Shown here: positions 4,979 to 54,515 of the stretch, piece by piece
Layout of the letters: each line of letters opens with the position of its first letter
Position numbering within the stretch: the first letter of the stretch is position 1
UHGV virus genome: UHGV-0104313
Source of the DNA: a virus
Reading direction: 5' to 3' (one strand)
DNA length: 64,000 nt
Made by a program: the position numbers and the translations under genes
The notes under the pieces: generated by a model
Told to the model about the DNA's origin: nothing
What the model saw: only the letters and a program-made list of their open reading frames with translations
The model's database searches: none

Positions 4979-5199
4979 TATCGGTTAACCAGTTCCTTGT
5001 TGGTGGAGTCCAGGGTGTCAAACAGGGATGCAAATTCAGCATCCAGCGCCGCTTTTTTGTAGGCTTCGAAAGTAGCCTTGCTGACAATTACTGCTGGCTC
5101 ACGGCCTCTGCGGGTGATTTCAACCTCTTCCCCGGCTTCAACATTGTTGAGCACTTCAGAAAGGTTGCCACGCGCGGTACGGAAGTTAATGGATTGCAT
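4978..5199 (-). CDS. phd: Phd antitoxin, 73 aa from second Met
   Basis: Translation [40 protein letters not shown] recognised as Phd; ORF track start trimmed to the conserved Met. Confidence 0.9.
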
Positions 5200-5271
5200 A
5201 AACACCTCGTGTACTCGTTATGTGTACACAATTATAAACTTCACAGGCATAAAGCACCAGCACTTTGCAGC

Positions 5272-5661
5272 TTAAATAACCGGACAATCATCAAATTCCC
5301 CACTTCGGGCATCATTGATGACATGAGTGATCACACCAAAAACAGCATTACTGCCCGTGTATCCATCGTCATCTACTGGTAACGCCTCTTTCTTCCCGGT
5401 GCTTAAGTCCTCCAGGTGCTGGCGCGGATACTTCCTGTATCTCTTTATGCGATATTCACCCTCCATAGCGCACACAAGCAGAGAACCATCAACCGGAGTA
5501 AGCGAGGAATCAACCACCAGCAAAGCACCCTGCAATATTCCCTCACGGTGATGGCTATCAGCTGCCCGCATGAAGTAGGTCGCTGAAGGATGTCTAATTA
5601 TCTGCTGATCAAGAGAAATTCGGCTTTCAACATAATCCGCCGCAGGAGAAGGGAAGCCCAT
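5272..5661 (-). CDS. humD: UmuD'-like S24 peptidase-fold protein (HumD-like), 129 aa
   Basis: MGFPSPAADYVE...HPSATYF...DS...IKRY aligns to E. coli UmuD from Gly25 onward; Ser/Lys dyad positions retained; no umuC partner adjacent. Confidence 0.85.
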   Translation of the reverse strand: MGFPSPAADYVESRISLDQQIIRHPSATYFMRAADSHHREGILQGALLVVDSSLTPVDGSLLVCAMEGEYRIKRYRKYPRQHLEDLSTGKKEALPVDDDGYTGSNAVFGVITHVINDARSGEFDDCPVI

Positions 5662-5679
5662 AGCGTTTTACCTCAATAA

Positions 5680-5699
5680 TACTGTTTATTCATACAGTA
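5680..5699. promoter_or_regulatory. LexA (SOS) box TACTGTATGAATAAACAGTA
   Basis: Perfect CTGT-N8-ACAG palindrome ~19 bp upstream of the humD start. Confidence 0.7.
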
Positions 5700-5784
5700 T
5701 ACATTGAAAAGGCATAGTTTGTGAAAGCGGGGTTTGTAGGCGCGCCACGCTGGGGGCTAATCACATTTCTCCCCCATCTTGCCG

Positions 5785-6036
5785 TTATTTTTTTGGTGCA
5801 TCCTCGTTCTGATACACCGGATCGCTCCCTTTTGGCAACTGGAGGCTTAACTGCCGATAGTGCCGTAACCGTTCCATGAAATAGGTGCGCAGATTCTCTG
5901 GTTGCTCGCGGGCTACCTGTTCAGCTATGACAGGTATGTTCAATCGCTCTTTGTACGCCACACCGCTGGCAGCCAGATCAACGTTAACCTTATCCCGTTC
6001 TTCCTGACTTTTAGCTGCAATATTCCAATCGTGCAT
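5785..6036 (-). CDS. hot: DNA polymerase III theta-subunit (HolE) homolog, ~83 aa
   Basis: [43 protein letters not shown] aligns to E. coli HolE; start trimmed to MHDW. Confidence 0.7.
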
Positions 6037-6485
6037 ATCAAATCCCATCCAGAACAATTGCGTAACGACTATTATTTAACCAGCAAAGTAACTTTTAATT
6101 TTTTTTCTTTTCCCATTGATTTTTGTGCACAGCTTATCTGCCTTGCCGTGCGCAGAATCAACTTTTTTCTTCCTGATTTATCCACAAAGTTATGCACTTG
6201 CAAGAGGGCCATTTTCTAAATATTGTGATGTTTCACAAATGAAATGAATTTTGATTAATGAAGATAAGGAGAAAATTTGAGATGCAATCATGACGTTAAT
6301 AGATAGGGTCTGCATTACAGACCCCATCCGCATCAAGGAATTAGCCGTTCCCTGATGTTGTTCCGAAAACATGTGCCGTAAGCTCACGTTAACGACTTTC
6401 TTTCACCGAATCCAACTATATAGGGGTTGGGTTTCTACGTCAACGTGAGCAAGTGCTCCTTTACATTTGACAAGGAACCACCTTA

Positions 6486-45301: not shown

Positions 45302-45898
45302 ATGGCTGTGATTCCAATGTCGTACTCCCCGGGTACTGTCGCTCGTCGATTTTCGATCCTGGACGGCGTTACCATCCAGGGTGTGCTTTACCAGGTTATA
45401 TGGGATTCCAAAACCCCATTTGCAGCTGTAATAGAGGCTGCGCCTTCTGTTATCGATGGTGATATGCGCCATAAGGTTGTCGCTACTCTTGAACTTCAAC
45501 GTCGCCCGCAGCTTGAAGGCGTACTGGTAAGGAAGTTCTGGGAGGATAGCGATGTTGCCCAGATTGAAGGTATTGTGGTTGATGGAACCGTCCGTGATGT
45601 CGGTTTAGCTACTTTTGTTTACGAAACCGTAGCCTCAAAAGCTGGTGTTGTTTTGCTTAGTGATAATGAGCAATACGAAGGTGGAAAAGCTCTTTGGCAA
45701 CACATCGCCCGTCGCTCTTCCGAGCTAAAAGTGTTTATCCTCGACACCGATGCCGCTCAGTATTACCCGTTTGACGGCGAACGTGTTTGCTATGACGGGG
45801 TAAGTATTCCTGAATCTGAGATATGGAGTGAACACCCAGATCGAAGTAAGCATGGGGTTGTTCTTGTCGCTGAATCCATAACTGGAAAGGCGGCATAG
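45302..45898 (+). CDS. hypothetical protein, ~198 aa
   Basis: ORF track trimmed to ATG preceded by AAGGGGGA RBS. Confidence 0.45.
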   Translation: MAVIPMSYSPGTVARRFSILDGVTIQGVLYQVIWDSKTPFAAVIEAAPSVIDGDMRHKVVATLELQRRPQLEGVLVRKFWEDSDVAQIEGIVVDGTVRDVGLATFVYETVASKAGVVLLSDNEQYEGGKALWQHIARRSSELKVFILDTDAAQYYPFDGERVCYDGVSIPESEIWSEHPDRSKHGVVLVAESITGKAA

Positions 45899-46192
45899 CA
45901 GTAAAATTCCTTGCTCCTTAAAAGGGGAGAGGGTTAATCTAGATATGCTAAGCATGGATATGGCCTCAGATTAATGTTAAGCGTCTTGCAGGACGCGTAA
46001 TGTTATCTGGGGCTTTCTTCTGTTATTTGTTTGAGTGCTAGGTAGCAAAGAGAGCTAGCATTCATCAGGCAAATCTATCAATAAATAGCGTTAGTTTTTG
46101 TTGTGTGTATGTTTCTTTATTGTTATTGTTATTGTGTTGTTTGTTTTTTGGACAACGCAATTCCTATAATCTATAGAATAAAGGAAGTATAT

Positions 46193-46480
46193 ATGGCTGA
46201 TGTACGCATTACTTGCATTACCCTCTCCGGCTCGCAATCAATCCATGAGCATATTACTCATGTGGGAAGTCCTCAATTTAATACTAGCAATGGGAAATGG
46301 ACTGTTGAGCAGGTAATTAATGCTATTGATAATAATCTCCATACATTCTATGTAACAGATAATGCAGGTAATCGTGTAGAAGTTGGGGTTGTTAATCCTG
46401 GTAATGGTGGAAGGCAGTTTATTAGAACGTATGCAGACAATCGATGGAATAATAATTTACTATCGCTACCAGTCTGTTAA
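46193..46480 (+). CDS. hypothetical small protein, 95 aa, moron-like (own AT-rich upstream region and terminator)
   Basis: ATG after GGAAG RBS and TATAAT-like hexamer; upstream T/G-rich simple repeat. Confidence 0.45.
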   Translation: MADVRITCITLSGSQSIHEHITHVGSPQFNTSNGKWTVEQVINAIDNNLHTFYVTDNAGNRVEVGVVNPGNGGRQFIRTYADNRWNNNLLSLPVC

Positions 46481-46494
46481 TGTAATTTTATAAA

Positions 46495-46527
46495 AAAGGC
46501 TGCAACCTCTGTTGCAGCCTTTTTTTA
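46495..46527. terminator. bidirectional intrinsic terminator (AAAAAAGGCTGCAACCTCTGTTGCAGCCTTTTTTT)
   Basis: 10-bp stem flanked by A-run and T-run, between convergent genes. Confidence 0.6.
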
Positions 46528-46550
46528 GCCATTATGACTGAGATAAGCCA

Positions 46551-47606
46551 CTATAAACTCTGAACAAGACGTTCGATTGCTGCACCATATCTTTCTAATG
46601 GTTCATTATTGATTTGTGGCTCAGTGTCATGGATCTGATATCTGCCTGGTTTTATATCAAATAGAGGTCTTCCTAGATGGGAAGATACTATAGCTACGGA
46701 ATGGTTATCTGGCACAGTAAACGTTTTTAAATTTCCGCCTTGGAACGCTGTTGGTTTATTCGTCCGCAGATTTTCAGCTCTATCCCTGATTTCGTCGAAC
46801 ATTGCCGAAAACGCTTTACTTGCTCGTTTGTCATACTCTGTCGAACGATTAAAAACTAGAGAATGAATGACAGGAACCGCTAGACCAAACTGTTGACACC
46901 GATCGTAAAAGTTAACAGAACGATAATCGTTTTGTACTCCAACGCCATAAACCAACTGGCTTAGGTTATCCACTGCTCGAGCCGAAGAACCATCACTTGA
47001 GCAAGGTATTATAATTGCATTTGCTGCTATCAGTGATAGTTCGGTATAGGCAGAGAAACTGGGGTTGCAATCAATAAAGCAAATGGTTTCTTCGATACCT
47101 TGTTGTTGTGCACATGCAACAAGCAAATCTCGTAGCCACAGGTGGATGCTTTTCCATGAGTCAACTGGTAAGTTTACGCTGCTTAACTGATTGATTACTT
47201 GCGCCTGAACTTCCAGGCTTGGGTCGCCTGCAATCAAAAATACATTGTCAGGGACATGCCCGTTAATTTCAGAGACATGAATTAAGAAACTTGTTTCTGA
47301 ACCGGTAAGCATGTGGGGGCTGCGAGTTCTTCTGTCAAAGTACCCACCGACAGTTTTTCGTTGTTGAATTAAGTTCGCGAGGTTAGCAGCACCAGTACCG
47401 TTACCGCCGAGCAATATTTCAGATAAGTTAGCCTGCGGGCACATATCTGCAAAAATAATACGCTTTTCTGGATTTTGCCTTGCGTATTCACAGGCCATAG
47501 CGAAAGATAAGTATGTCTTTCCTACGCCACCTTTATTATTCCAAATAGCATACGATTTCATGGTATCCCCGGCGTTATCTGCTGTTTGTGTGCCAGCATA
47601 AGTCAT
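46551..47606 (-). CDS. ParA/MinD-family P-loop ATPase-like protein, 351 aa
   Basis: Deviant Walker A NKGGVGKT near N-terminus; GGAG RBS upstream. Confidence 0.5.
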   Translation of the reverse strand: MTYAGTQTADNAGDTMKSYAIWNNKGGVGKTYLSFAMACEYARQNPEKRIIFADMCPQANLSEILLGGNGTGAANLANLIQQRKTVGGYFDRRTRSPHMLTGSETSFLIHVSEINGHVPDNVFLIAGDPSLEVQAQVINQLSSVNLPVDSWKSIHLWLRDLLVACAQQQGIEETICFIDCNPSFSAYTELSLIAANAIIIPCSSDGSSARAVDNLSQLVYGVGVQNDYRSVNFYDRCQQFGLAVPVIHSLVFNRSTEYDKRASKAFSAMFDEIRDRAENLRTNKPTAFQGGNLKTFTVPDNHSVAIVSSHLGRPLFDIKPGRYQIHDTEPQINNEPLERYGAAIERLVQSL

Positions 47607-47850
47607 TATGCATCTCCATTACTATCCATGAATTAAGTCAAAAAATATGTAAAAGTAGCAATGTATCACTCTTTTACTCATTATAAACGTTACAAGTTGT
47701 GATGGTTAGCTGTGTTTTTATCAGTACAAGTTTTGATCTGGCTTTGGGTTTTTATATATGGATATGTCTCAACGATGCCCTGCAAAAAGTGATCGCTAAC
47801 TGTAAAAAATCAGATTGCATCTCCGACCTCAAACTGAAAACGCCAGGTGA

Positions 47851-47867
47851 CTCCAGATTAGAGCAAT
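47851..47867 (-). promoter_or_regulatory. degenerate C1-type operator-like site (ATTGCTCTAATCTGGAG)
   Basis: Core ATTGCTCTAAT conserved, 3' half divergent; at the 3' end of the repL-like gene. Confidence 0.3.
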
Positions 47868-47870
47868 CTA

Positions 47871-48716
47871 TCACCCCCTGAATCCTGCCGGTATACCCCA
47901 TTTTTCGTTATCTTTATTTTTGGCTAAAACCGCATTAAGAGCTTCGTTTACCGTCATGCAATGCGGTAGATTATCGAAGTTTGATATCCCGCCAATATCA
48001 GGCGAACGCTTGTTCTTCAGGTAAGCATATTTCCGCCCAGCCGCCTCTACTTTCTGCTTGAACTCATGTTTTTGAGCGCGTTTTTTGGATAACCGCAGAT
48101 TGTCAGCCTTTGCTTTTGCCTCAGCGATCCATGAAGTCAATTTTTTGAGTCTGGTCGTTCCGGCACCGCCGGAAACTGATCTTTTTGTTTTTTTAACTTG
48201 TGACTTCTTATTCTTTATTGCCACGTCATCCTGACAGGGGGAGGGGGTATCATTTTGACATGGGGGTGTGGATAAAAAATCAAATAAAGCCAATGTCTTA
48301 GCGAGAACAGCTTTAACCTTGGTTGCCGCTGAAGAGATCTTTAATTTGCTTTCAATCAGCGCATTTTTGGCTTGTTGTGCGAAGGCGAAAAAGGATGGTG
48401 TAAACCGGTACAGGTTAGCGCGACGTTCATGGTGATCGCCGATAACAATCTCTACAGACAGAATTCCTTTGTTTACAGCTTCACGGAATGCACGAACGAC
48501 GGTTGATTGGCTATAACCAGTTTCTGCCGCGATCAGGCGGTGGGGCTTGTGAATGAAGTATTCACTGGTTGTTGCCGCGAGATTTGCACATTGCGACAGG
48601 ATATGCCCGGCGCTACGGGATAGACCGGAGTGTGTTACAAAGAAGGCCAATTCATAGCCAGAAAAAGTAAAATCGCTCATCGTTATACAGCTCAGGAAAG
48701 TGACTTTAGCCAGCAT
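47871..48716 (-). CDS. repL: lytic-replicon initiator candidate (RepL-like), 281 aa
   Basis: Size and position directly downstream of kilA as in P1; basic C-terminal half; by synteny. Confidence 0.5.
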   Translation of the reverse strand: MLAKVTFLSCITMSDFTFSGYELAFFVTHSGLSRSAGHILSQCANLAATTSEYFIHKPHRLIAAETGYSQSTVVRAFREAVNKGILSVEIVIGDHHERRANLYRFTPSFFAFAQQAKNALIESKLKISSAATKVKAVLAKTLALFDFLSTPPCQNDTPSPCQDDVAIKNKKSQVKKTKRSVSGGAGTTRLKKLTSWIAEAKAKADNLRLSKKRAQKHEFKQKVEAAGRKYAYLKNKRSPDIGGISNFDNLPHCMTVNEALNAVLAKNKDNEKWGIPAGFRG

Positions 48717-51121: not shown

Positions 51122-51379
51122 AAACCCCCCTGAACGTCGGCAGAGAAGGGGAGGCTCCAGTAACTAAGTGAATTGCGCGAGTTAGTTGAAAAACGGGCAG
51201 TAAAAATGCAGGGGCCATCAGGCAATTGAGAGCGTGCTTCGTCTTCTGTTGCTGCGATAACGAAGTGATAGTGGTGTTTTTGGCAGGAGTAAAAGCGCCA
51301 GATAAATTCAGGATGAGTAGGGGTAGGGATAGTAGCCACAATGGCAGCCTCCTTTTGCTAATTTAAGGAGCTACCGCGT

Positions 51380-51590
51380 GAGGTTCCAATCTCAATGGCG
51401 GTAGCACTGACTGGGTTGGAACTACCGGCGCAAAAGGGAACCGGCCTGCCTTTCGGCAGCCCAGCCAGCACTACCATTGATCTCGGAGCTATGTGCTACG
51501 TATGGTTGTGCGATGGCATGACACAAAAAAAGACGCTTTTGGCGTCTATGTCGCCTTTTGCATTATCCGGGGTTCCAATCCCGGCATCCG
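51380..51590 (-). ncRNA. c4-like antisense RNA locus (boundaries not resolved)
   Basis: Two direct copies of GGTTCCAATC (~51382, ~51571) bracket a structured segment carrying the complementary GTTCCAA (~51413); lies between operator and ant start. Confidence 0.3.
51512..51537 (-). terminator. minus-strand hairpin plus U-run (AGACGCCAAAAGCGTCT TTTTTTT in minus sense)
   Basis: Stem-loop followed by T7 on the minus strand inside the immunity leader. Confidence 0.4.
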
Positions 51591-51673
51591 TTTTACTAAG
51601 ATGCCTGTTTAGGATAAACCGAAAATGCATTAGCACGCAAGCAAGTTAATGTAGCATATGAAGCTAAAAAAAT

Positions 51674-51690
51674 AAAATAATTAGAGCAAC
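51674..51690 (-). promoter_or_regulatory. C1-type operator-like site (GTTGCTCTAATTATTTT)
   Basis: 13-14/17 match at the head of the c4/ant leader. Confidence 0.45.
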
Positions 51691-51747
51691 TTGCAACCAT
51701 GTAAATTATTTCTCTGGTAACTAAAATGTATGAGTTTAATTGATATG

Positions 51748-51764
51748 GGTCAAAGATTTTGACC
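51748..51764. promoter_or_regulatory. perfect 7-3-7 palindrome GGTCAAAGATTTTGACC upstream of the AT-rich island
   Basis: Seen directly; ~75 bp before the island's first ATG; no T-run, so more likely a protein-binding site than a terminator. Confidence 0.3.
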
Positions 51765-51836
51765 ATTGCATGGTGAAACTTTATGCTACAAAATGTTATT
51801 TTAAGGCGTTTTATCTGTGGCAGGAGATAGTTAATC

Positions 51837-52187
51837 ATGTCATCTGAACATGTTCGTAAAGGTGTAACAAATGCGAAATTCAATGAAGAGCAATCTAATA
51901 TTCTCTTTATTGAAATAGGAATTCTGTCAATACTGATAGGTTTAATGTCTAAATCATGGTGGGCCTTTGGCGGTTCTTTTCTTGGACTGATTTTTAGTTT
52001 AAGAATAAAATTTCTAGCAATACCATTGATGATTGTATTTAGCTTAGTATGGGGAGCTATTGGCTATAGTATTGGTACTTTGTTTGAATCAACAGCAGCA
52101 AGTATTGTTTTGGGGGTAATTGCTTTCCTGAGTGGTTTGGGTACTCATTTTGCTGCCGTGCAATGGGCAAATGATATTGCAGAATAA
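51837..52187 (+). CDS. small polytopic membrane protein, 116 aa (AT-rich island gene 1)
   Basis: Three to four hydrophobic helices; GGAGATAG RBS. Confidence 0.55.
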   Translation: MSSEHVRKGVTNAKFNEEQSNILFIEIGILSILIGLMSKSWWAFGGSFLGLIFSLRIKFLAIPLMIVFSLVWGAIGYSIGTLFESTAASIVLGVIAFLSGLGTHFAAVQWANDIAE

Positions 52188-52209
52188 TTACAGATAAGAA
52201 GCGAAAAGA

Positions 52210-52686
52210 ATGAATATGAGATGGTTTTTATTATTTGTATCGTTAGTTTCAGCAGGAACATTTGCAAAAATTGATCCTCTACAATGGAATGTAATTGAAG
52301 AGAGAGGGGGGAGAGAATATACAATCCATAATCATAATGGTGATAAGATAAGTTTTTTATGTGATATGGGATTCATGTATGGTTCACCAGATAGTGCAGG
52401 TAGTTTAGGCTTGTTGCTAAGTTCGTCGAATAATAAAAAAGAGTATAATGCTGACAAGAATAAAATAGTATTAACTATAGATGGTGATCAATATCCTTTT
52501 AGAAATCTTGGATCAATGGTTGGAGATTCTTGGTGGTATGCCTTTTGGCAAGATGCAGCAGATTCAAATGCTAATATGATTGATGCTTATGTTGATAATG
52601 AAAAAATTGCTACATTCCCTCTTTCTGGGCTAAGTAAGTTGTATCAACAAGCCAAAATGGATGGATGTATTAAACGAGGCAAATGA
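52210..52686 (+). CDS. secreted/periplasmic protein with signal peptide, 158 aa (island gene 2)
   Basis: N-terminal MNMRWFLLFVSLVSAGTFA signal-like sequence; Cys pair; low GC. Confidence 0.55.
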   Translation: MNMRWFLLFVSLVSAGTFAKIDPLQWNVIEERGGREYTIHNHNGDKISFLCDMGFMYGSPDSAGSLGLLLSSSNNKKEYNADKNKIVLTIDGDQYPFRNLGSMVGDSWWYAFWQDAADSNANMIDAYVDNEKIATFPLSGLSKLYQQAKMDGCIKRGK

Positions 52687-52760
52687 TCTTTCTGTGTTAA
52701 AGATTAACGCAATCAATAAAACATTGGTTGCGTAATATTCTATTATAGAAATGGAATAAT

Positions 52761-53795
52761 ATGACAAAAATTACTAATTCTAATGAGTTGAAGTTGCTGT
52801 ATAAACAGTCAGTGCTCATTCCATCATACAAAGATCACGTAGCGATCTTGCAAAAACAATTAGGAATAGAAAAACATTCTTTTCAAAATATGCCAAGATT
52901 GAATAGACAAGCTGTAATTAGTAACTCTCTTCGAAAACAATTGGCTAGTATACCGAACTTGGCTGGAATAGGCAGCAAGTATCGTGAACATATCGCGATT
53001 TTACAGAAACAGACTCAGGCTCTTTTCCCTCATGATGCAAATAGATATATTCAAATGCTAAGGAAACAGGCCGAAATAGCTATGCCATTACGAAAACAGC
53101 TTGAGGTGCTTAATAAGCAAGCTGGTTTAAATAACATGCAAGCGATACTTAAAGAATTACAACAAAGTGCAAGTTATAAAATAGATGTAAGCCAAGACAT
53201 AAAGAAAGTACTAGATCACTATGCTAGAACAAGAAATGCTTCATTACATCAAATAATAGAGCAGGGGATTTCATCTATTGCGCAGGCTTATGCTGAAGGT
53301 GCTACTGAAACATCACACACCAAAAGTAATGTTCAAAATAAAGGATTAAATAAACCTAGCTCAAAGTTTGTTGATTCATTTAAAGAGCTTCCTTATCCAC
53401 TGCAATGGTTACTAATGGTTATATTTTCTCAAGTTGTGTTTGGTGCTTTTATTGATTACGGAAAAGAGAAAACCTTGCTGGGAATACACAAGGCAGAATC
53501 ATATTTTATATCTCTGTTTGAGGATAAACCAATATCAAAACAACAATTAATTAAAGAAAACAAAGAAATTAGTTGGGAAGATCTCAATGGTTTTCGTTTT
53601 ATAACTGGTGAGAACGTAAGATTACACGTCAGTCCTTCTATAAATAGTGAGGTGATTGAATGCATTGGCAAAAATACTATAGTGGCTGTTTTAGATAAAA
53701 AAGATCGCCAATGGCTTTTCGTGCAGGTTAAATCAGGGGACGAGTTTATTACTGGATGGATTACACGAACATACACAAAGCCTCTTAAGGCTTGA
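52761..53795 (+). CDS. membrane-anchored protein with N-terminal ~50-aa tandem repeat and C-terminal SH3b-like domain, 344 aa (island gene 3)
   Basis: Repeats YKDHVAILQKQ...LRKQLASIP / YREHIAILQKQ...LRKQAEIAMPLRKQ; TM LQWLLMVIFSQVVFGAFIDY; C-terminal beta-rich SH3-like region. Confidence 0.55.
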   Translation: MTKITNSNELKLLYKQSVLIPSYKDHVAILQKQLGIEKHSFQNMPRLNRQAVISNSLRKQLASIPNLAGIGSKYREHIAILQKQTQALFPHDANRYIQMLRKQAEIAMPLRKQLEVLNKQAGLNNMQAILKELQQSASYKIDVSQDIKKVLDHYARTRNASLHQIIEQGISSIAQAYAEGATETSHTKSNVQNKGLNKPSSKFVDSFKELPYPLQWLLMVIFSQVVFGAFIDYGKEKTLLGIHKAESYFISLFEDKPISKQQLIKENKEISWEDLNGFRFITGENVRLHVSPSINSEVIECIGKNTIVAVLDKKDRQWLFVQVKSGDEFITGWITRTYTKPLKA

Positions 53796-53907
53796 ATTTT
53801 ATCACCGTATCTTGGGGCTGGGTGTTGATGACGATGTGCTACTTGAAGTACTTGGGTTTTTTAACGCAGCATCTGAAATGTGTAGACTGACCGGTAACAA
53901 ATGACAA

Positions 53908-54515
<608 letters not shown>

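What the first reader, a model, noticed from the sequence alone, without database searches (positions are those of the whole stretch)
51650..53830. AT-rich three-gene membrane/periplasmic island next to the immunity (ant/c4) locus
Base composition drops sharply (roughly one-third GC by eye, against about half elsewhere) across 51.8-53.8 kb. The island has a small polytopic membrane protein, a signal-peptide protein, and a membrane-anchored protein with a tandem ~50-aa HxAILQKQ/LRKQ repeat and SH3b-like C-terminus, preceded by a perfect palindrome GGTCAAAGATTTTGACC. This looks like a horizontally acquired moron placed where P1-type phages carry superinfection-exclusion (sim) functions; it could be a sim-like or abortive-infection module. 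None of the three proteins matches a family I can name confidently.
Basis: partly seen in the sequence, partly recalled or inferred. Interest (0 to 1): 0.7.

Follow-up and report, generated by a model that had tools for sequence, protein, structure and literature searches.

The report
Alternative envelope-gene cassette in P1 sim slot
This AT-rich stretch is one of several interchangeable three-gene "cargo" cassettes that P1-like phage-plasmids carry exactly where phage P1 keeps its superinfection-exclusion (sim) genes; it encodes three uncharacterised cell-envelope proteins unrelated to Sim, so it is a real, untested candidate exclusion module rather than a new kind of system.

Summary
Window 51691-53896 has 34.3% GC against 47.6% elsewhere, the lowest 2.2-kb stretch in the window. 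It carries three + strand genes:
- ORF1: 116 aa, four hydrophobic segments.
- ORF2: 158 aa, with a signal peptide.
- ORF3: 344 aa, with repeats, one TM segment and a C-terminal SH3b domain.

The window is a P1-like phage-plasmid. The island fills the slot between the C1 operator/c4 RNA and the late promoter/pmgC, where P1 has simA-simB-simC. None of the three proteins resembles SimA, SimB or SimC.

New here:
- ORF2 belongs to the YfjT/YkfB family (hhalign 99.7% to K-12 YfjT).
- In 68 P1-like loci the slot is never empty. It holds one of three mutually exclusive cores: YfjT-like (36), SimC (16), or lipoprotein+DUF5384 (16). All are AT-rich.
- ORF1 and ORF3 also occur alone elsewhere, and ORF2-family genes occur without either, so the trio is a mosaic, not an obligate operon.
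- ORF3 has a near-invariant TM+SH3 half and a fast-evolving, recombining repeat half.

The sim region is already published as a low-GC variable region. Function is inferred from position and envelope targeting only. The best guess is envelope-level exclusion of incoming phage (about 0.4). No defence, Abi or solved-structure match was found.

The parts
51394..51481 (-). c4 antisense RNA of the immI operon. Left-hand context, not part of the cargo.
   Evidence: Rfam RF01695, 76.7 bits against a gathering score of 45, full length.
51674..51690 (-). C1-operator-like site (Oc4 equivalent). This is the left boundary of the replaceable slot.
   Evidence: Read on the minus strand it matches the P1 C1 operator consensus ATTGCTCTAATAAATTT (recalled from my own knowledge) at 14 of 17 positions. 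The core TTAGAGCA is conserved in all ten slot variants aligned, and the sequences diverge immediately to its right. P1 annotates Oc4 at the same place.
51748..51764 (.). Inverted repeat GGTCAAA-GAT-TTTGACC. It supplies a TTGACC -35-like hexamer on each strand.
   Evidence: Unique in the window, but one of 14 comparable inverted repeats in the island. Two positions differ in the sister cassettes L004 and L054.
51759..51787 (+). Sigma-70-like promoter candidate (TTGACC, 17 nt, TATGCT) upstream of ORF1.
   Evidence: Consensus scan, 9 of 12 matches. The count of such sites in the region (7) is no higher than in shuffles (9.8), so this is weak evidence.
51837..52187 (+). ORF1: a 116-aa small polytopic inner-membrane protein. 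It has a cytoplasmic N-terminal motif VRKGxTNAKFNEE followed by four hydrophobic segments.
   Evidence: Matches phrog_15014, function unknown. Only 13 clusters in 5.8 billion proteins, including Salmonella, Vibrio and metagenome copies that stand alone.
52210..52686 (+). ORF2: a 158-aa secreted (Sec signal peptide) YfjT/YkfB-family protein with a beta-rich fold and a conserved Cys pair.
   Evidence: hhalign of the family profile against K-12 YfjT: probability 99.7%, E 3.5e-26. AlphaFold2 pLDDT 86.8. C51 is invariant and C153 is present in at least 90% of sequences. Some RefSeq records name it 'YfjT/YkfB family phage-associated protein'.
52707..52733 (+). Hairpin in the 74-nt ORF2-ORF3 spacer. 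A weak terminator-like site.
   Evidence: 11-pair stem with 4 G-C pairs and a poor T tract.
52761..53795 (+). ORF3: a 344-aa bitopic membrane protein. It has a variable helical repeat domain (1-~205), a TM segment (213-233), a linker, and a near-invariant C-terminal SH3b domain (~278-340).
   Evidence: Matches phrog_7086, function unknown.
53897..53948 (+). Conserved late-promoter (LPsit) and hairpin region upstream of pmgC. This is the right boundary of the slot.
   Evidence: All nine slot variants aligned converge from ACAAATGAC onward. Megablast identity to P1 and P7 resumes at 53896-53897. P1 annotates LPsit here.

Best explanation
The window is a P1-like phage-plasmid. The island is one allelic cargo cassette of its hypervariable 'sim' slot.

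Shown:
- The cassette replaces simABC between the C1 operator/c4 and LPsit/pmgC.
- It is a mosaic of three separately mobile genes for envelope proteins: a small four-TM protein, a periplasmic YfjT/YkfB-family protein, and a bitopic protein with a conserved SH3b end and a fast-evolving repeat end.

Inferred:
- The slot is never empty, and its alternative contents are mutually exclusive. All of them are secreted, lipid-anchored or membrane proteins, and the one characterised occupant (P1 Sim) excludes superinfecting P1.
- On that basis the cassette most likely acts in the envelope of the carrier cell to block an incoming phage or other invader at or just after adsorption, before its DNA reaches the cytoplasm.
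- In this reading ORF2 acts in the periplasm. ORF3 is N-in/C-out, with its SH3b domain bound to peptidoglycan. Its variable repeat domain sets specificity, or simply tolerates change.

The positional and compositional part of this statement is near certain (about 0.95). The exclusion function carries the confidence given below (0.4).
For: Position and boundaries:
- Homology to RCS47/JL22 ends at about 51689 and homology to P1/P7 resumes at about 53896.
- P1 has simA, simB and simC in exactly this interval and orientation.
- Both junctions are shared by all slot variants examined.

Slot survey:
- 73 loci have an icd-to-pmgC distance of 1688-4251 bp and 23 architectures.
- In the 68 IMG/VR loci every slot carries exactly one of YfjT-like (36), SimC (16) or lipoprotein+DUF5384 (16), and never two.
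- All cargos have 0.34-0.41 GC against 0.46-0.48 in the flanks.

Envelope targeting:
- ORF1, ORF2 and ORF3.
- SimA-like, SimB and SimC: their translated N-termini look like signal peptides.
- Lipo173: its sequence carries a lipobox-like LSGC motif and it gives weak TraT and glycine-zipper hits.

Selection and maintenance:
- ORF3 has dN/dS of 0.12-0.40 in the TM+SH3 half and 0.4-0.87 in the repeat half. The synonymous divergences of the two halves are discordant (for example L001 against L006: 0.47 against 0.02), which indicates intragenic recombination.
- The island is found at 95-100% identity (27 of 30 at 99% or more) in 27 PLSDB plasmids and 37 of 5426 complete E. coli genomes.

Other points:
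- YfjT-like genes also occur in virulent jumbo phages, so the family serves phages themselves.
- Sim background: the sim genes are non-essential (PMC10695390). Sim is thought to stop injection of superinfecting DNA (PMC8546580).
Against: - There is no sequence or profile similarity to SimA, SimB or SimC.
- There is no hit to any PADLOC defence model. Pfam gives only a sub-threshold SH3_3 hit and weak chance-level matches, and NCBIfam gives nothing.
- Sharing a slot can reflect recombination at common flanks rather than common function.
- ORF1 and ORF3 occur alone in unrelated contexts, so the three need not cooperate.
- The variable domain of ORF3 is predicted to be cytoplasmic, which is not where an incoming virion is first met.
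- Charge bias across the TM segment is weak and not conserved in the family, so the topology is uncertain.
- Promoter evidence is no better than chance.
Confidence: 0.4

Rival explanations
1. Lysogenic-conversion cargo for the host rather than against phages. The envelope proteins would change surface or periplasm properties (serum or colicin resistance, adhesion, envelope-stress tolerance), as lambda bor/lom or plasmid traT do. They would be kept because they help the carrier bacterium.
For: - AT-rich, moron-like placement between conserved phage modules.
- A sister cassette encodes a lipoprotein with a weak TraT hit (E 7e-5, below the cut-off).
- The closest viral structural neighbour of ORF2 is labelled 'putative adhesin'.
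- The carrier plasmids come mostly from clinical and animal E. coli.
- YfjT and YkfB sit in K-12 cryptic elements beside a lipoprotein.
Against: - There is no match to any known virulence or resistance family.
- YfjT-like genes also occur in virulent jumbo phages, which never lysogenise.
- The 'adhesin' label is an unverified annotation.
- ORF2 is soluble and periplasmic, with no outer-membrane anchor.
Confidence: 0.22
2. Accessory function in the phage's own lytic cycle, such as control of lysis timing, lysis inhibition, or help with tail or ejection functions. The genes would be transcribed with, or reading into, the downstream late operon pmgC-tub-pmgB-sit.
For: - The cargo genes are co-oriented with the late operon and abut it.
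- In Cronobacter phage JK004 the SimA-like plus YfjT-like pair is embedded in a run of same-strand genes directly upstream of the genes that occupy the pmgC, tub and pmgB positions (assigned by order and size only).
- YfjT-like genes are present in virulent jumbo phages.
- SH3b domains are common in phage cell-wall enzymes (established knowledge of PF08239).
Against: - P1's occupants of the same slot are non-essential for plaque formation (PMC10695390).
- The slot contents are mutually exclusive and non-homologous, which is unusual for a morphogenetic or lysis step.
- ORF3 has no catalytic domain.
- LPsit lies downstream of the cargo, not upstream.
Confidence: 0.15
3. Abortive-infection or membrane-toxin module. 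The variable cytoplasmic repeat domain of ORF3 would sense a phage protein, and its TM segment (or ORF1) would then collapse the membrane, killing the infected cell.
For: - A variable, recombining sensor-like domain is joined to a conserved membrane part.
- ORF3 occurs as a lone opposite-strand gene in distant P1 relatives, as single-gene Abi morons do.
- One ORF1 homologue lies next to an AAA_15/AAA_21 ATPase gene in Vibrio.
Against: - There are no PADLOC hits.
- dN/dS of the variable half stays below 1.
- The most conserved part is a periplasmic-type SH3b domain, which an Abi pore has no obvious need for.
- No toxin or antitoxin signature was found.
Confidence: 0.1
4. Functionless hitch-hiking DNA that sits in a recombination-prone, H-NS-silenced gap.
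For: Low GC. All three proteins have unknown function. The slot is mosaic, with gene remnants in some variants: P1 SimA is truncated to 52 aa, and DUF4760 stubs remain.
Against: - The reading frames are intact and 95-100% identical across dozens of plasmids from different hosts and continents.
- There is purifying selection on ORF3.
- ORF1 has an invariant 12-residue motif across genera.
- ORF2 has a confident fold and conserved cysteines.
- The slot is never empty in 68 loci.
Confidence: 0.05

Closest known systems
Phage P1 simA-simB-simC (superimmunity / superinfection exclusion locus)
   Same: - Identical genomic slot and orientation, between Oc4/c4 and LPsit/pmgC.
- Three small genes.
- AT-rich (P1 0.336 GC, here 0.343).
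- Products are exported or membrane proteins.
- Dispensable variable region.

   Different: - No detectable homology to SimA, SimB or SimC.
- One product here is a polytopic membrane protein and one is a bitopic SH3b protein, neither of which P1 sim has.
- No exclusion phenotype has been tested.
E. coli K-12 YfjT (CP4-57) and YkfB (CP4-6) family (precomputed Pfam hit PF27224 on ORF2's homologues; family of unknown function)
   Same: - ORF2 is a true homologue: 26% identity with BLASTP E 3e-10, and profile probability 99.7%.
- Same size, signal peptide and conserved Cys pair.
- In CP4-57, yfjT also follows a small membrane-protein gene (ypjK) and an envelope lipoprotein gene (yfjS).
   Different: - ORF1 is not similar to YpjK and nothing here resembles YfjS.
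- The K-12 genes lie in integrated cryptic elements, not in a P1 slot.
- No function is known for any member. A literature search found none.
'Variable region 4' (simC/simB/simA) of P1-like phage-plasmids, described in PMC9603915
   Same: This is the same region. The paper lists it among eight highly variable regions and among those with low G+C.
   Different: In the passages retrieved (a term search, not a full read), the paper records only that the P1 sim genes are variable or missing. It does not describe what replaces them. The cassette types, their mutual exclusivity and the YfjT-like and SH3 families are worked out here.
Bitopic envelope proteins with a C-terminal peptidoglycan-binding domain (FtsN and DamX with SPOR domains) and entry-exclusion proteins with cytoplasmic specificity regions (SXT/R391 Eex). 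Recalled from knowledge; analogy only.
   Same: Predicted N-in/TM/C-out layout. One end carries a conserved cell-wall-type binding domain and the other a variable region that could set specificity.
   Different: No sequence relationship. SH3b rather than SPOR. Topology was not tested, and charge bias is weak and inconsistent across the family.

Membership tests
P1 Sim (SimA/SimB/SimC) | Sequence homology to SimA, SimB or SimC | tested here: not met
   BLASTP best E 0.72 with short chance segments only. hhalign of the ORF2 family against SimB gives probability 0.8% and against SimC 0.5%, aligning signal peptides only.
P1 Sim (SimA/SimB/SimC) | Location between the c4 operator/promoter and LPsit/pmgC, divergent from c4 | tested here: met
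P1 Sim (SimA/SimB/SimC) | Exported, signal-peptidase-processed effector | tested here: inconclusive
   ORF2 has a canonical Sec signal peptide by sequence, and all its homologues keep one. Processing was not shown.
P1 Sim (SimA/SimB/SimC) | Confers exclusion of superinfecting P1 after adsorption | not testable with these tools
   Needs plating and transduction assays.
YfjT/YkfB family | Homology to E. coli K-12 YfjT over the full length | tested here: met
   hhalign probability 99.7%, E 3.5e-26, 149 aligned columns. BLASTP 26% identity, E 3e-10. Precomputed Pfam PF27224 on its cluster. The local Pfam and NCBIfam copies gave no hit.
YfjT/YkfB family | About 150 aa, N-terminal signal peptide, conserved Trp and Cys pair | tested here: met
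   C51 and W109 are invariant. W26, G33, G44, G54 and C153 are present in at least 90% of 13 sequences at 23-36% identity.
Bacterial SH3 domain (Pfam SH3_3, PF08239) | Profile match above the curated threshold | tested here: inconclusive
   ORF3 itself scores 26.0 bits against a cut-off of 27 (E 1.1e-5). However, 46 of its 48 homologue clusters, including the 100%-identical one, carry a precomputed PF08239 hit.
Bacterial SH3 domain (Pfam SH3_3, PF08239) | Small all-beta barrel fold | tested here: inconclusive
   The AlphaFold2 model shows six strands at 278-334, but pLDDT there is only 56-72. Foldseek against the PDB found nothing usable.
Known anti-phage defence systems (PADLOC-DB v2) | Match of any component to a defence-system model | tested here: not met
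   No family at E up to 1 for ORF1, ORF2 or ORF3. Among sister-cassette proteins only a nuclease-domain protein (u419) gave weak hits.
Phage moron / accessory cargo cassette | Compositionally deviant insert between conserved phage genes, absent from close relatives | tested here: met
   GC 0.343 against 0.476. Absent from all 50,697 phage records by megablast, and ORF3 also absent by tblastn. Replaced by other cassettes in relatives.
Phage moron / accessory cargo cassette | Own promoter and terminator; expressed in the lysogen | tested here: inconclusive
   One promoter-like site upstream of ORF1 and weak hairpins after ORF2 and ORF3. Promoter-like sites are no more frequent than in shuffles.

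The most novel reading that the evidence does not exclude
The sim slot of P1-like phage-plasmids would be a dedicated, always-occupied 'exclusion-specificity' locus with at least three non-homologous solutions. The YfjT/YkfB family, its commonest occupant, would be a general periplasmic exclusion factor of phages and other mobile elements. That would give a first function to the K-12 y-genes yfjT and ykfB.

In this reading ORF3 is a new kind of exclusion determinant. Its invariant SH3b end is fixed to the cell wall, and its recombining repeat domain sets which invader is recognised.
Probability: 0.2. Interest if true: 0.7.

Novelty: new variant of a known kind. Interest (0 to 1): 0.45.

Why it matters
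P1 is a workhorse phage, and P1-like phage-plasmids are common carriers of resistance genes in clinical E. coli. Three things would follow if the interchangeable cassettes in the sim slot are alternative exclusion modules.

- They would decide which P1-like elements and other phages can enter a carrier strain. That bears on the spread of phage-plasmid-borne resistance and on phage therapy and transduction tools.
- A test would assign a first function to the YfjT/YkfB family, which is present in E. coli K-12 cryptic prophages and in jumbo phages.
- It would also assign a function to an SH3b membrane-protein family so far found mainly on phage-plasmid-sized contigs.

Even without a phenotype, the survey changes the picture of the locus. 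The classical simABC arrangement of P1 is a minority in this sample. simA is clearly truncated relative to full-length SimA-like genes, which suggests, but does not prove, that the P1 arrangement is derived.

Tried and rejected
1. Homology of the island proteins to SimA, SimB or SimC. BLASTP and profile comparison were both negative.
2. Known defence systems. PADLOC found nothing for the three proteins. Among sister-cassette proteins only u419 gave weak nuclease-domain hits.
3. Pfam and NCBIfam. Only a sub-threshold SH3_3 hit and weak chance-level matches.
4. Structure of ORF3. AlphaFold2 with 32 sequences gave pLDDT 47. Foldseek against the PDB on that model was meaningless. Sequence and profile searches of the PDB gave only weak helical-repeat noise: HP0242 chimera E 6e-4 and apolipoprotein A-IV E 0.02.
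6. The palindrome as an operator. It is unique in the window but not exceptional and not conserved in sister cassettes, so it was dropped.
7. The three genes as an obligate trio. This was rejected:
   - ORF1 homologues stand alone in Vibrio and metagenome contigs, with no YfjT-like ORF nearby.
   - ORF3 homologues stand alone in Citrobacter, Salmonella and Yersinia elements.
   - ORF1+ORF2 pair with DUF4760 instead of SH3 in some loci.
8. ORF3's N-terminal domain as a mimic of another protein of the phage. tblastn against the window found nothing.
9. A conserved positive charge on ORF3's N-terminal domain. It is +5 to +16 in most E. coli-type alleles (one is +1) but -7 to +2 in the Citrobacter and Salmonella alleles, so it is not a family trait.
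10. Positive selection (dN/dS above 1) on the repeat domain. Not seen; values are 0.4-0.87.
11. Literature on YfjT/YkfB, DUF4760 and sim-slot cassettes. Nothing functional was found.
Full report
**1. The observation**

- GC falls to 0.32-0.36 between about 51.6 and 53.8 kb, against 0.45-0.53 on both sides.
- The interval 51690-53890 has GC 0.343 against 0.476 for the rest of the window. It is the lowest of all 2.2-kb windows (mean 0.471, sd 0.03).
- Three + strand ORFs fill it: ORF1 51837-52187 (116 aa), ORF2 52210-52686 (158 aa) and ORF3 52761-53795 (344 aa).
- ORF1 has four hydrophobic segments.
- ORF2 has a Sec-type signal peptide, with h-region WFLLFVSLVSAG and site TFA|K.
- ORF3 has one hydrophobic segment at 213-233 and a tandem repeat of about 51-53 aa: YKDHVAILQKQ/YREHIAILQKQ and ...SLRKQ/...PLRKQ.
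- ORF3 also has a C-terminal SH3_3 match just under Pfam's threshold (26.0 against 27 bits).
It is a 7-3-7 inverted repeat, one of 14 comparable ones in the island, and it is mutated in sister cassettes.

**2. Where it sits**

- The flanks match P1-type phages. The left flank, up to about 51689, matches RCS47, JL22 and D6. The right flank, from 53896-53897, matches P1, P7 and SJ46.
- Rfam finds the c4 antisense RNA at 51394-51481 on the minus strand. icd and an ant-like gene follow on the minus strand.
- In P1, the interval between the C1 operator Oc4 and the late promoter LPsit/pmgC holds simA, simB and simC, divergent from c4.
- The island occupies exactly that interval and orientation.
- Alignment of ten variants at the left junction and nine at the right junction shows two things:
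  - All share the operator core TTAGAGCA and diverge immediately to its right.
  - All converge again at ACAAATGAC, 52 nt before the pmgC start.
- The replaceable cargo in the window is therefore 51691-53896.

**3. Not Sim, not a known defence**

- BLASTP of ORF1-3 against SimA, SimB and SimC gives only chance segments (best E 0.72).
- A profile of the ORF2 family aligns to SimB and SimC only over the signal peptide (probability below 1%).
- PADLOC gives nothing.
- PHROGs places the three in families of unknown function: 15014, 3429 and 7086.
- The island is absent from all 50,697 phage records by megablast. ORF3 is also absent by tblastn.
- At 80% coverage or more, the island is present in 27 PLSDB plasmids and 37 of 5426 complete E. 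coli genomes. Identity is 95-100% (27 of 30 at 99% or more), almost always on plasmids of about 90-100 kb.

**4. ORF2 is a YfjT/YkfB-family protein**

- Some RefSeq records name it so, and I tested the name.
- An exhaustive HMMER search of 1.84 billion representatives finds only 21 relatives.
- An alignment of 13 of them (23-36% identity) has an invariant Cys and Trp and a second near-invariant Cys.
- That profile matches E. coli K-12 YfjT with probability 99.7% (E 3.5e-26). BLASTP gives 26% identity, E 3e-10.
- AlphaFold2 gives a confident beta-rich model (pLDDT 86.8).
- In CP4-57, yfjT follows ypjK (a small membrane protein) and yfjS (a lipoprotein). That is a similar envelope trio, but ORF1 is not related to YpjK.
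- YfjT-like genes also occur in Cronobacter phage JK004, in phage Ro157c2YLVW, and in virulent jumbo phages of Serratia and Pectobacterium of about 275 kb.
- No functional study of the family was found.

**5. ORF3**

- Only 48 clusters exist in 5.8 billion proteins. All named ones are Enterobacterales: Escherichia, Citrobacter, Salmonella, Pseudocitrobacter and Yersinia.
- Many of them lie on contigs of about 85-99 kb.
- The alignment shows a near-invariant C-terminal third covering the TM segment, the linker and the SH3 domain.
- The N-terminal 190-350 residues vary in length and sequence. They are built of short degenerate repeats, such as about 13 aa around LQKQxGF, or 19-aa units in Citrobacter werkmanii.
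- Pairwise dN/dS is 0.12-0.40 in the conserved part and 0.4-0.87 in the repeat part.
- The two halves often have discordant synonymous divergence, which indicates intragenic recombination.
- The net charge of the N-terminal domain is +14 here, but that is not conserved across the family.
- Topology (N-in, SH3 in the periplasm) is inferred only from the absence of a signal peptide ahead of a 210-residue N-terminal domain.
- The AlphaFold2 model is poor (pLDDT 47).
- Divergent homologues in Citrobacter and Salmonella (about 40% identity) sit as a lone + strand gene in a different slot of distant P1 relatives. The Yersinia homologue lies beside umuDC-like genes. None has a YfjT-like neighbour.

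**6. ORF1**

- There are 13 clusters, 58-72% identical across Salmonella, Vibrio and metagenomes.
- All carry an invariant cytoplasmic motif VRKGxTNAKFNEE ahead of four hydrophobic segments.
- Outside P1-like elements the gene stands alone, in one case next to an integrase gene and in another next to an AAA ATPase gene.

**7. The slot as a whole**

- I fetched 80 IMG/VR loci through PmgC. I then delimited the icd-to-pmgC interval in 73 loci, counting the window, P1 and three further reference plasmid loci (L001, L003, L004).
- Its length ranges from 1688 to 4251 bp, with 23 architectures.
- The main architectures are:

| Architecture | Loci |
|---|---|
| SimA-like (224 aa) > YfjT-like | 18 |
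| Lipoprotein > DUF5384 protein | 16 |
| SimA (52 aa) > SimB > SimC (P1 type) | 15 (plus one locus with SimB > SimC and one with SimA-like 221 aa > SimC) |
| ORF1 > ORF2 > SH3 (window type) | 8 |
| SimA-like (163-172 aa) > YfjT-like (168 aa) > SH3 | 9 (one also carries DUF4760) |
| ORF1 > ORF2 > DUF4760 (reverse strand) | 4 |

- In the 68 unbiased loci every slot has exactly one of YfjT-like (36), SimC (16) or DUF5384 (16), and never two.
- SH3 genes occur only in slots that also carry a YfjT-like gene: 18 of 40 slots with one against 0 of 33 without. The nominal Fisher p is 3e-6, but the loci are not phylogenetically independent.
- The YfjT-like genes come in three alleles, 28-37% identical to each other.
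- P1's 52-aa SimA is the N-terminal stub of a 172-224-aa secreted protein. That protein is full length in most relatives and in phage JK004.
- SimC-type slots retain a stub of the DUF4760 gene.
- Every cassette is AT-rich (0.34-0.41), P1's own sim included (0.336).
- The sim region is already listed among eight variable regions of P1-like phage-plasmids, and among those with low G+C (PMC9603915). In the passages I retrieved by term search, its alternative contents are not described.

**8. Interpretation**

Shown:
- The island is a mosaic allelic cassette of a recombination hotspot bounded by two regulatory elements.
- Its three genes are under purifying selection. ORF1 and ORF3 each occur alone elsewhere, and ORF2-family genes occur without either.
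- All three products are targeted to the envelope.

Inferred:
- The slot is always filled by one of several non-homologous envelope cassettes, and the characterised one (Sim) blocks superinfecting P1. Sim is non-essential (PMC10695390) and is thought to prevent DNA injection (PMC8546580).
- On that basis the most likely role is envelope-level exclusion of incoming phage or other invaders. I put this at about 0.4.
- The rivals are host-benefit lysogenic conversion (0.22), a lytic-cycle accessory role (0.15), abortive infection (0.10) and junk DNA (0.05).
- Nothing computed here discriminates decisively between them. Plating, transduction and topology experiments would.

**9. Novelty and score**

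- The region's variability and low GC are published, and the genes are in RefSeq as hypothetical, SH3 or YfjT/YkfB proteins.
- New here are four points:
  - the assignment of ORF2 to the YfjT family by test;
  - the cassette census with mutual exclusivity;
  - the evidence that P1's own simA is truncated and simABC is the minority arrangement;
  - the two-speed, recombining architecture of the SH3 protein.
- I rate this a new variant of a known kind (accessory or exclusion cargo at a known hotspot), with interest 0.45.

Noticed in passing
window 51526-51604 (-): Rfam isrK (Hfq-binding sRNA, RF01394) scores 58.3 bits, above the gathering score of 50, directly upstream of the c4 RNA. The whole c4 leader here is a different allele from P1's. 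It accompanies ORF1-type cargo in all four ORF1-type loci aligned.
   Followed up: partly
L002 (phage P1) 3560-3718; L014, L046 and L092: P1 SimA (52 aa) is only the N-terminal stub of a 172-224-aa secreted 'SimA-like' protein. That protein is full length in most P1-like elements and 80% identical in Cronobacter phage JK004. The classical P1 sim arrangement may therefore be derived.
   Followed up: partly
L002 and other SimC-type slots, just upstream of LPsit: SimC-type slots keep a 45-59-codon remnant of the reverse-strand DUF4760 gene. They also keep a shared hairpin (CGCCCATTAAAGGGCG) that is intact in ORF1>ORF2>DUF4760 slots, a footprint of past cassette exchange.
   Followed up: partly
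L043 and 15 other loci (sim slot): A third cassette type encodes two proteins. One is a 173-aa lipoprotein with weak TraT (E 7e-5, below the cut-off) and glycine-zipper hits. The other is a 179-aa secreted DUF5384 protein (E 3e-43). One locus (L076) adds a 419-aa membrane protein with a DUF559/MTES_1575 nuclease domain.
   Followed up: partly
phage records H86-H91 (Serratia and Pectobacterium jumbo phages, about 275 kb): YfjT-like secreted proteins (24.8-26% identity to ORF2) are encoded by jumbo phages that I take to be virulent (my assumption, not checked). If so, the family is not restricted to temperate elements.
   Followed up: no
L089 and L091 (Citrobacter and Salmonella elements), 5001-6446: Distant ORF3 homologues sit as a lone + strand gene among minus-strand genes. 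They lie next to homologues of window genes at 13.9-18.8 kb and a 2262-aa Eco57I/helicase protein, which is a different slot in distant P1 relatives.
   Followed up: partly
window 51359-51478 equivalent (L001 5709-5828): RefSeq annotates a 39-aa 'ash family protein' CDS on top of the c4 RNA gene. This is probably a spurious protein call over an RNA gene.
   Followed up: no
window 45800-46800 and 47400-48000: Two further low-GC stretches (0.355-0.40), lying beyond the kilA-like gene and a MarR-family gene that occupies the repL position. By position they probably correspond to another published variable region (rlfA/rlfB/pmgF). The window also has a 351-aa minus-strand ORF (46551-47606) that is not annotated at the corresponding place in the otherwise identical plasmid L001.
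   Followed up: no
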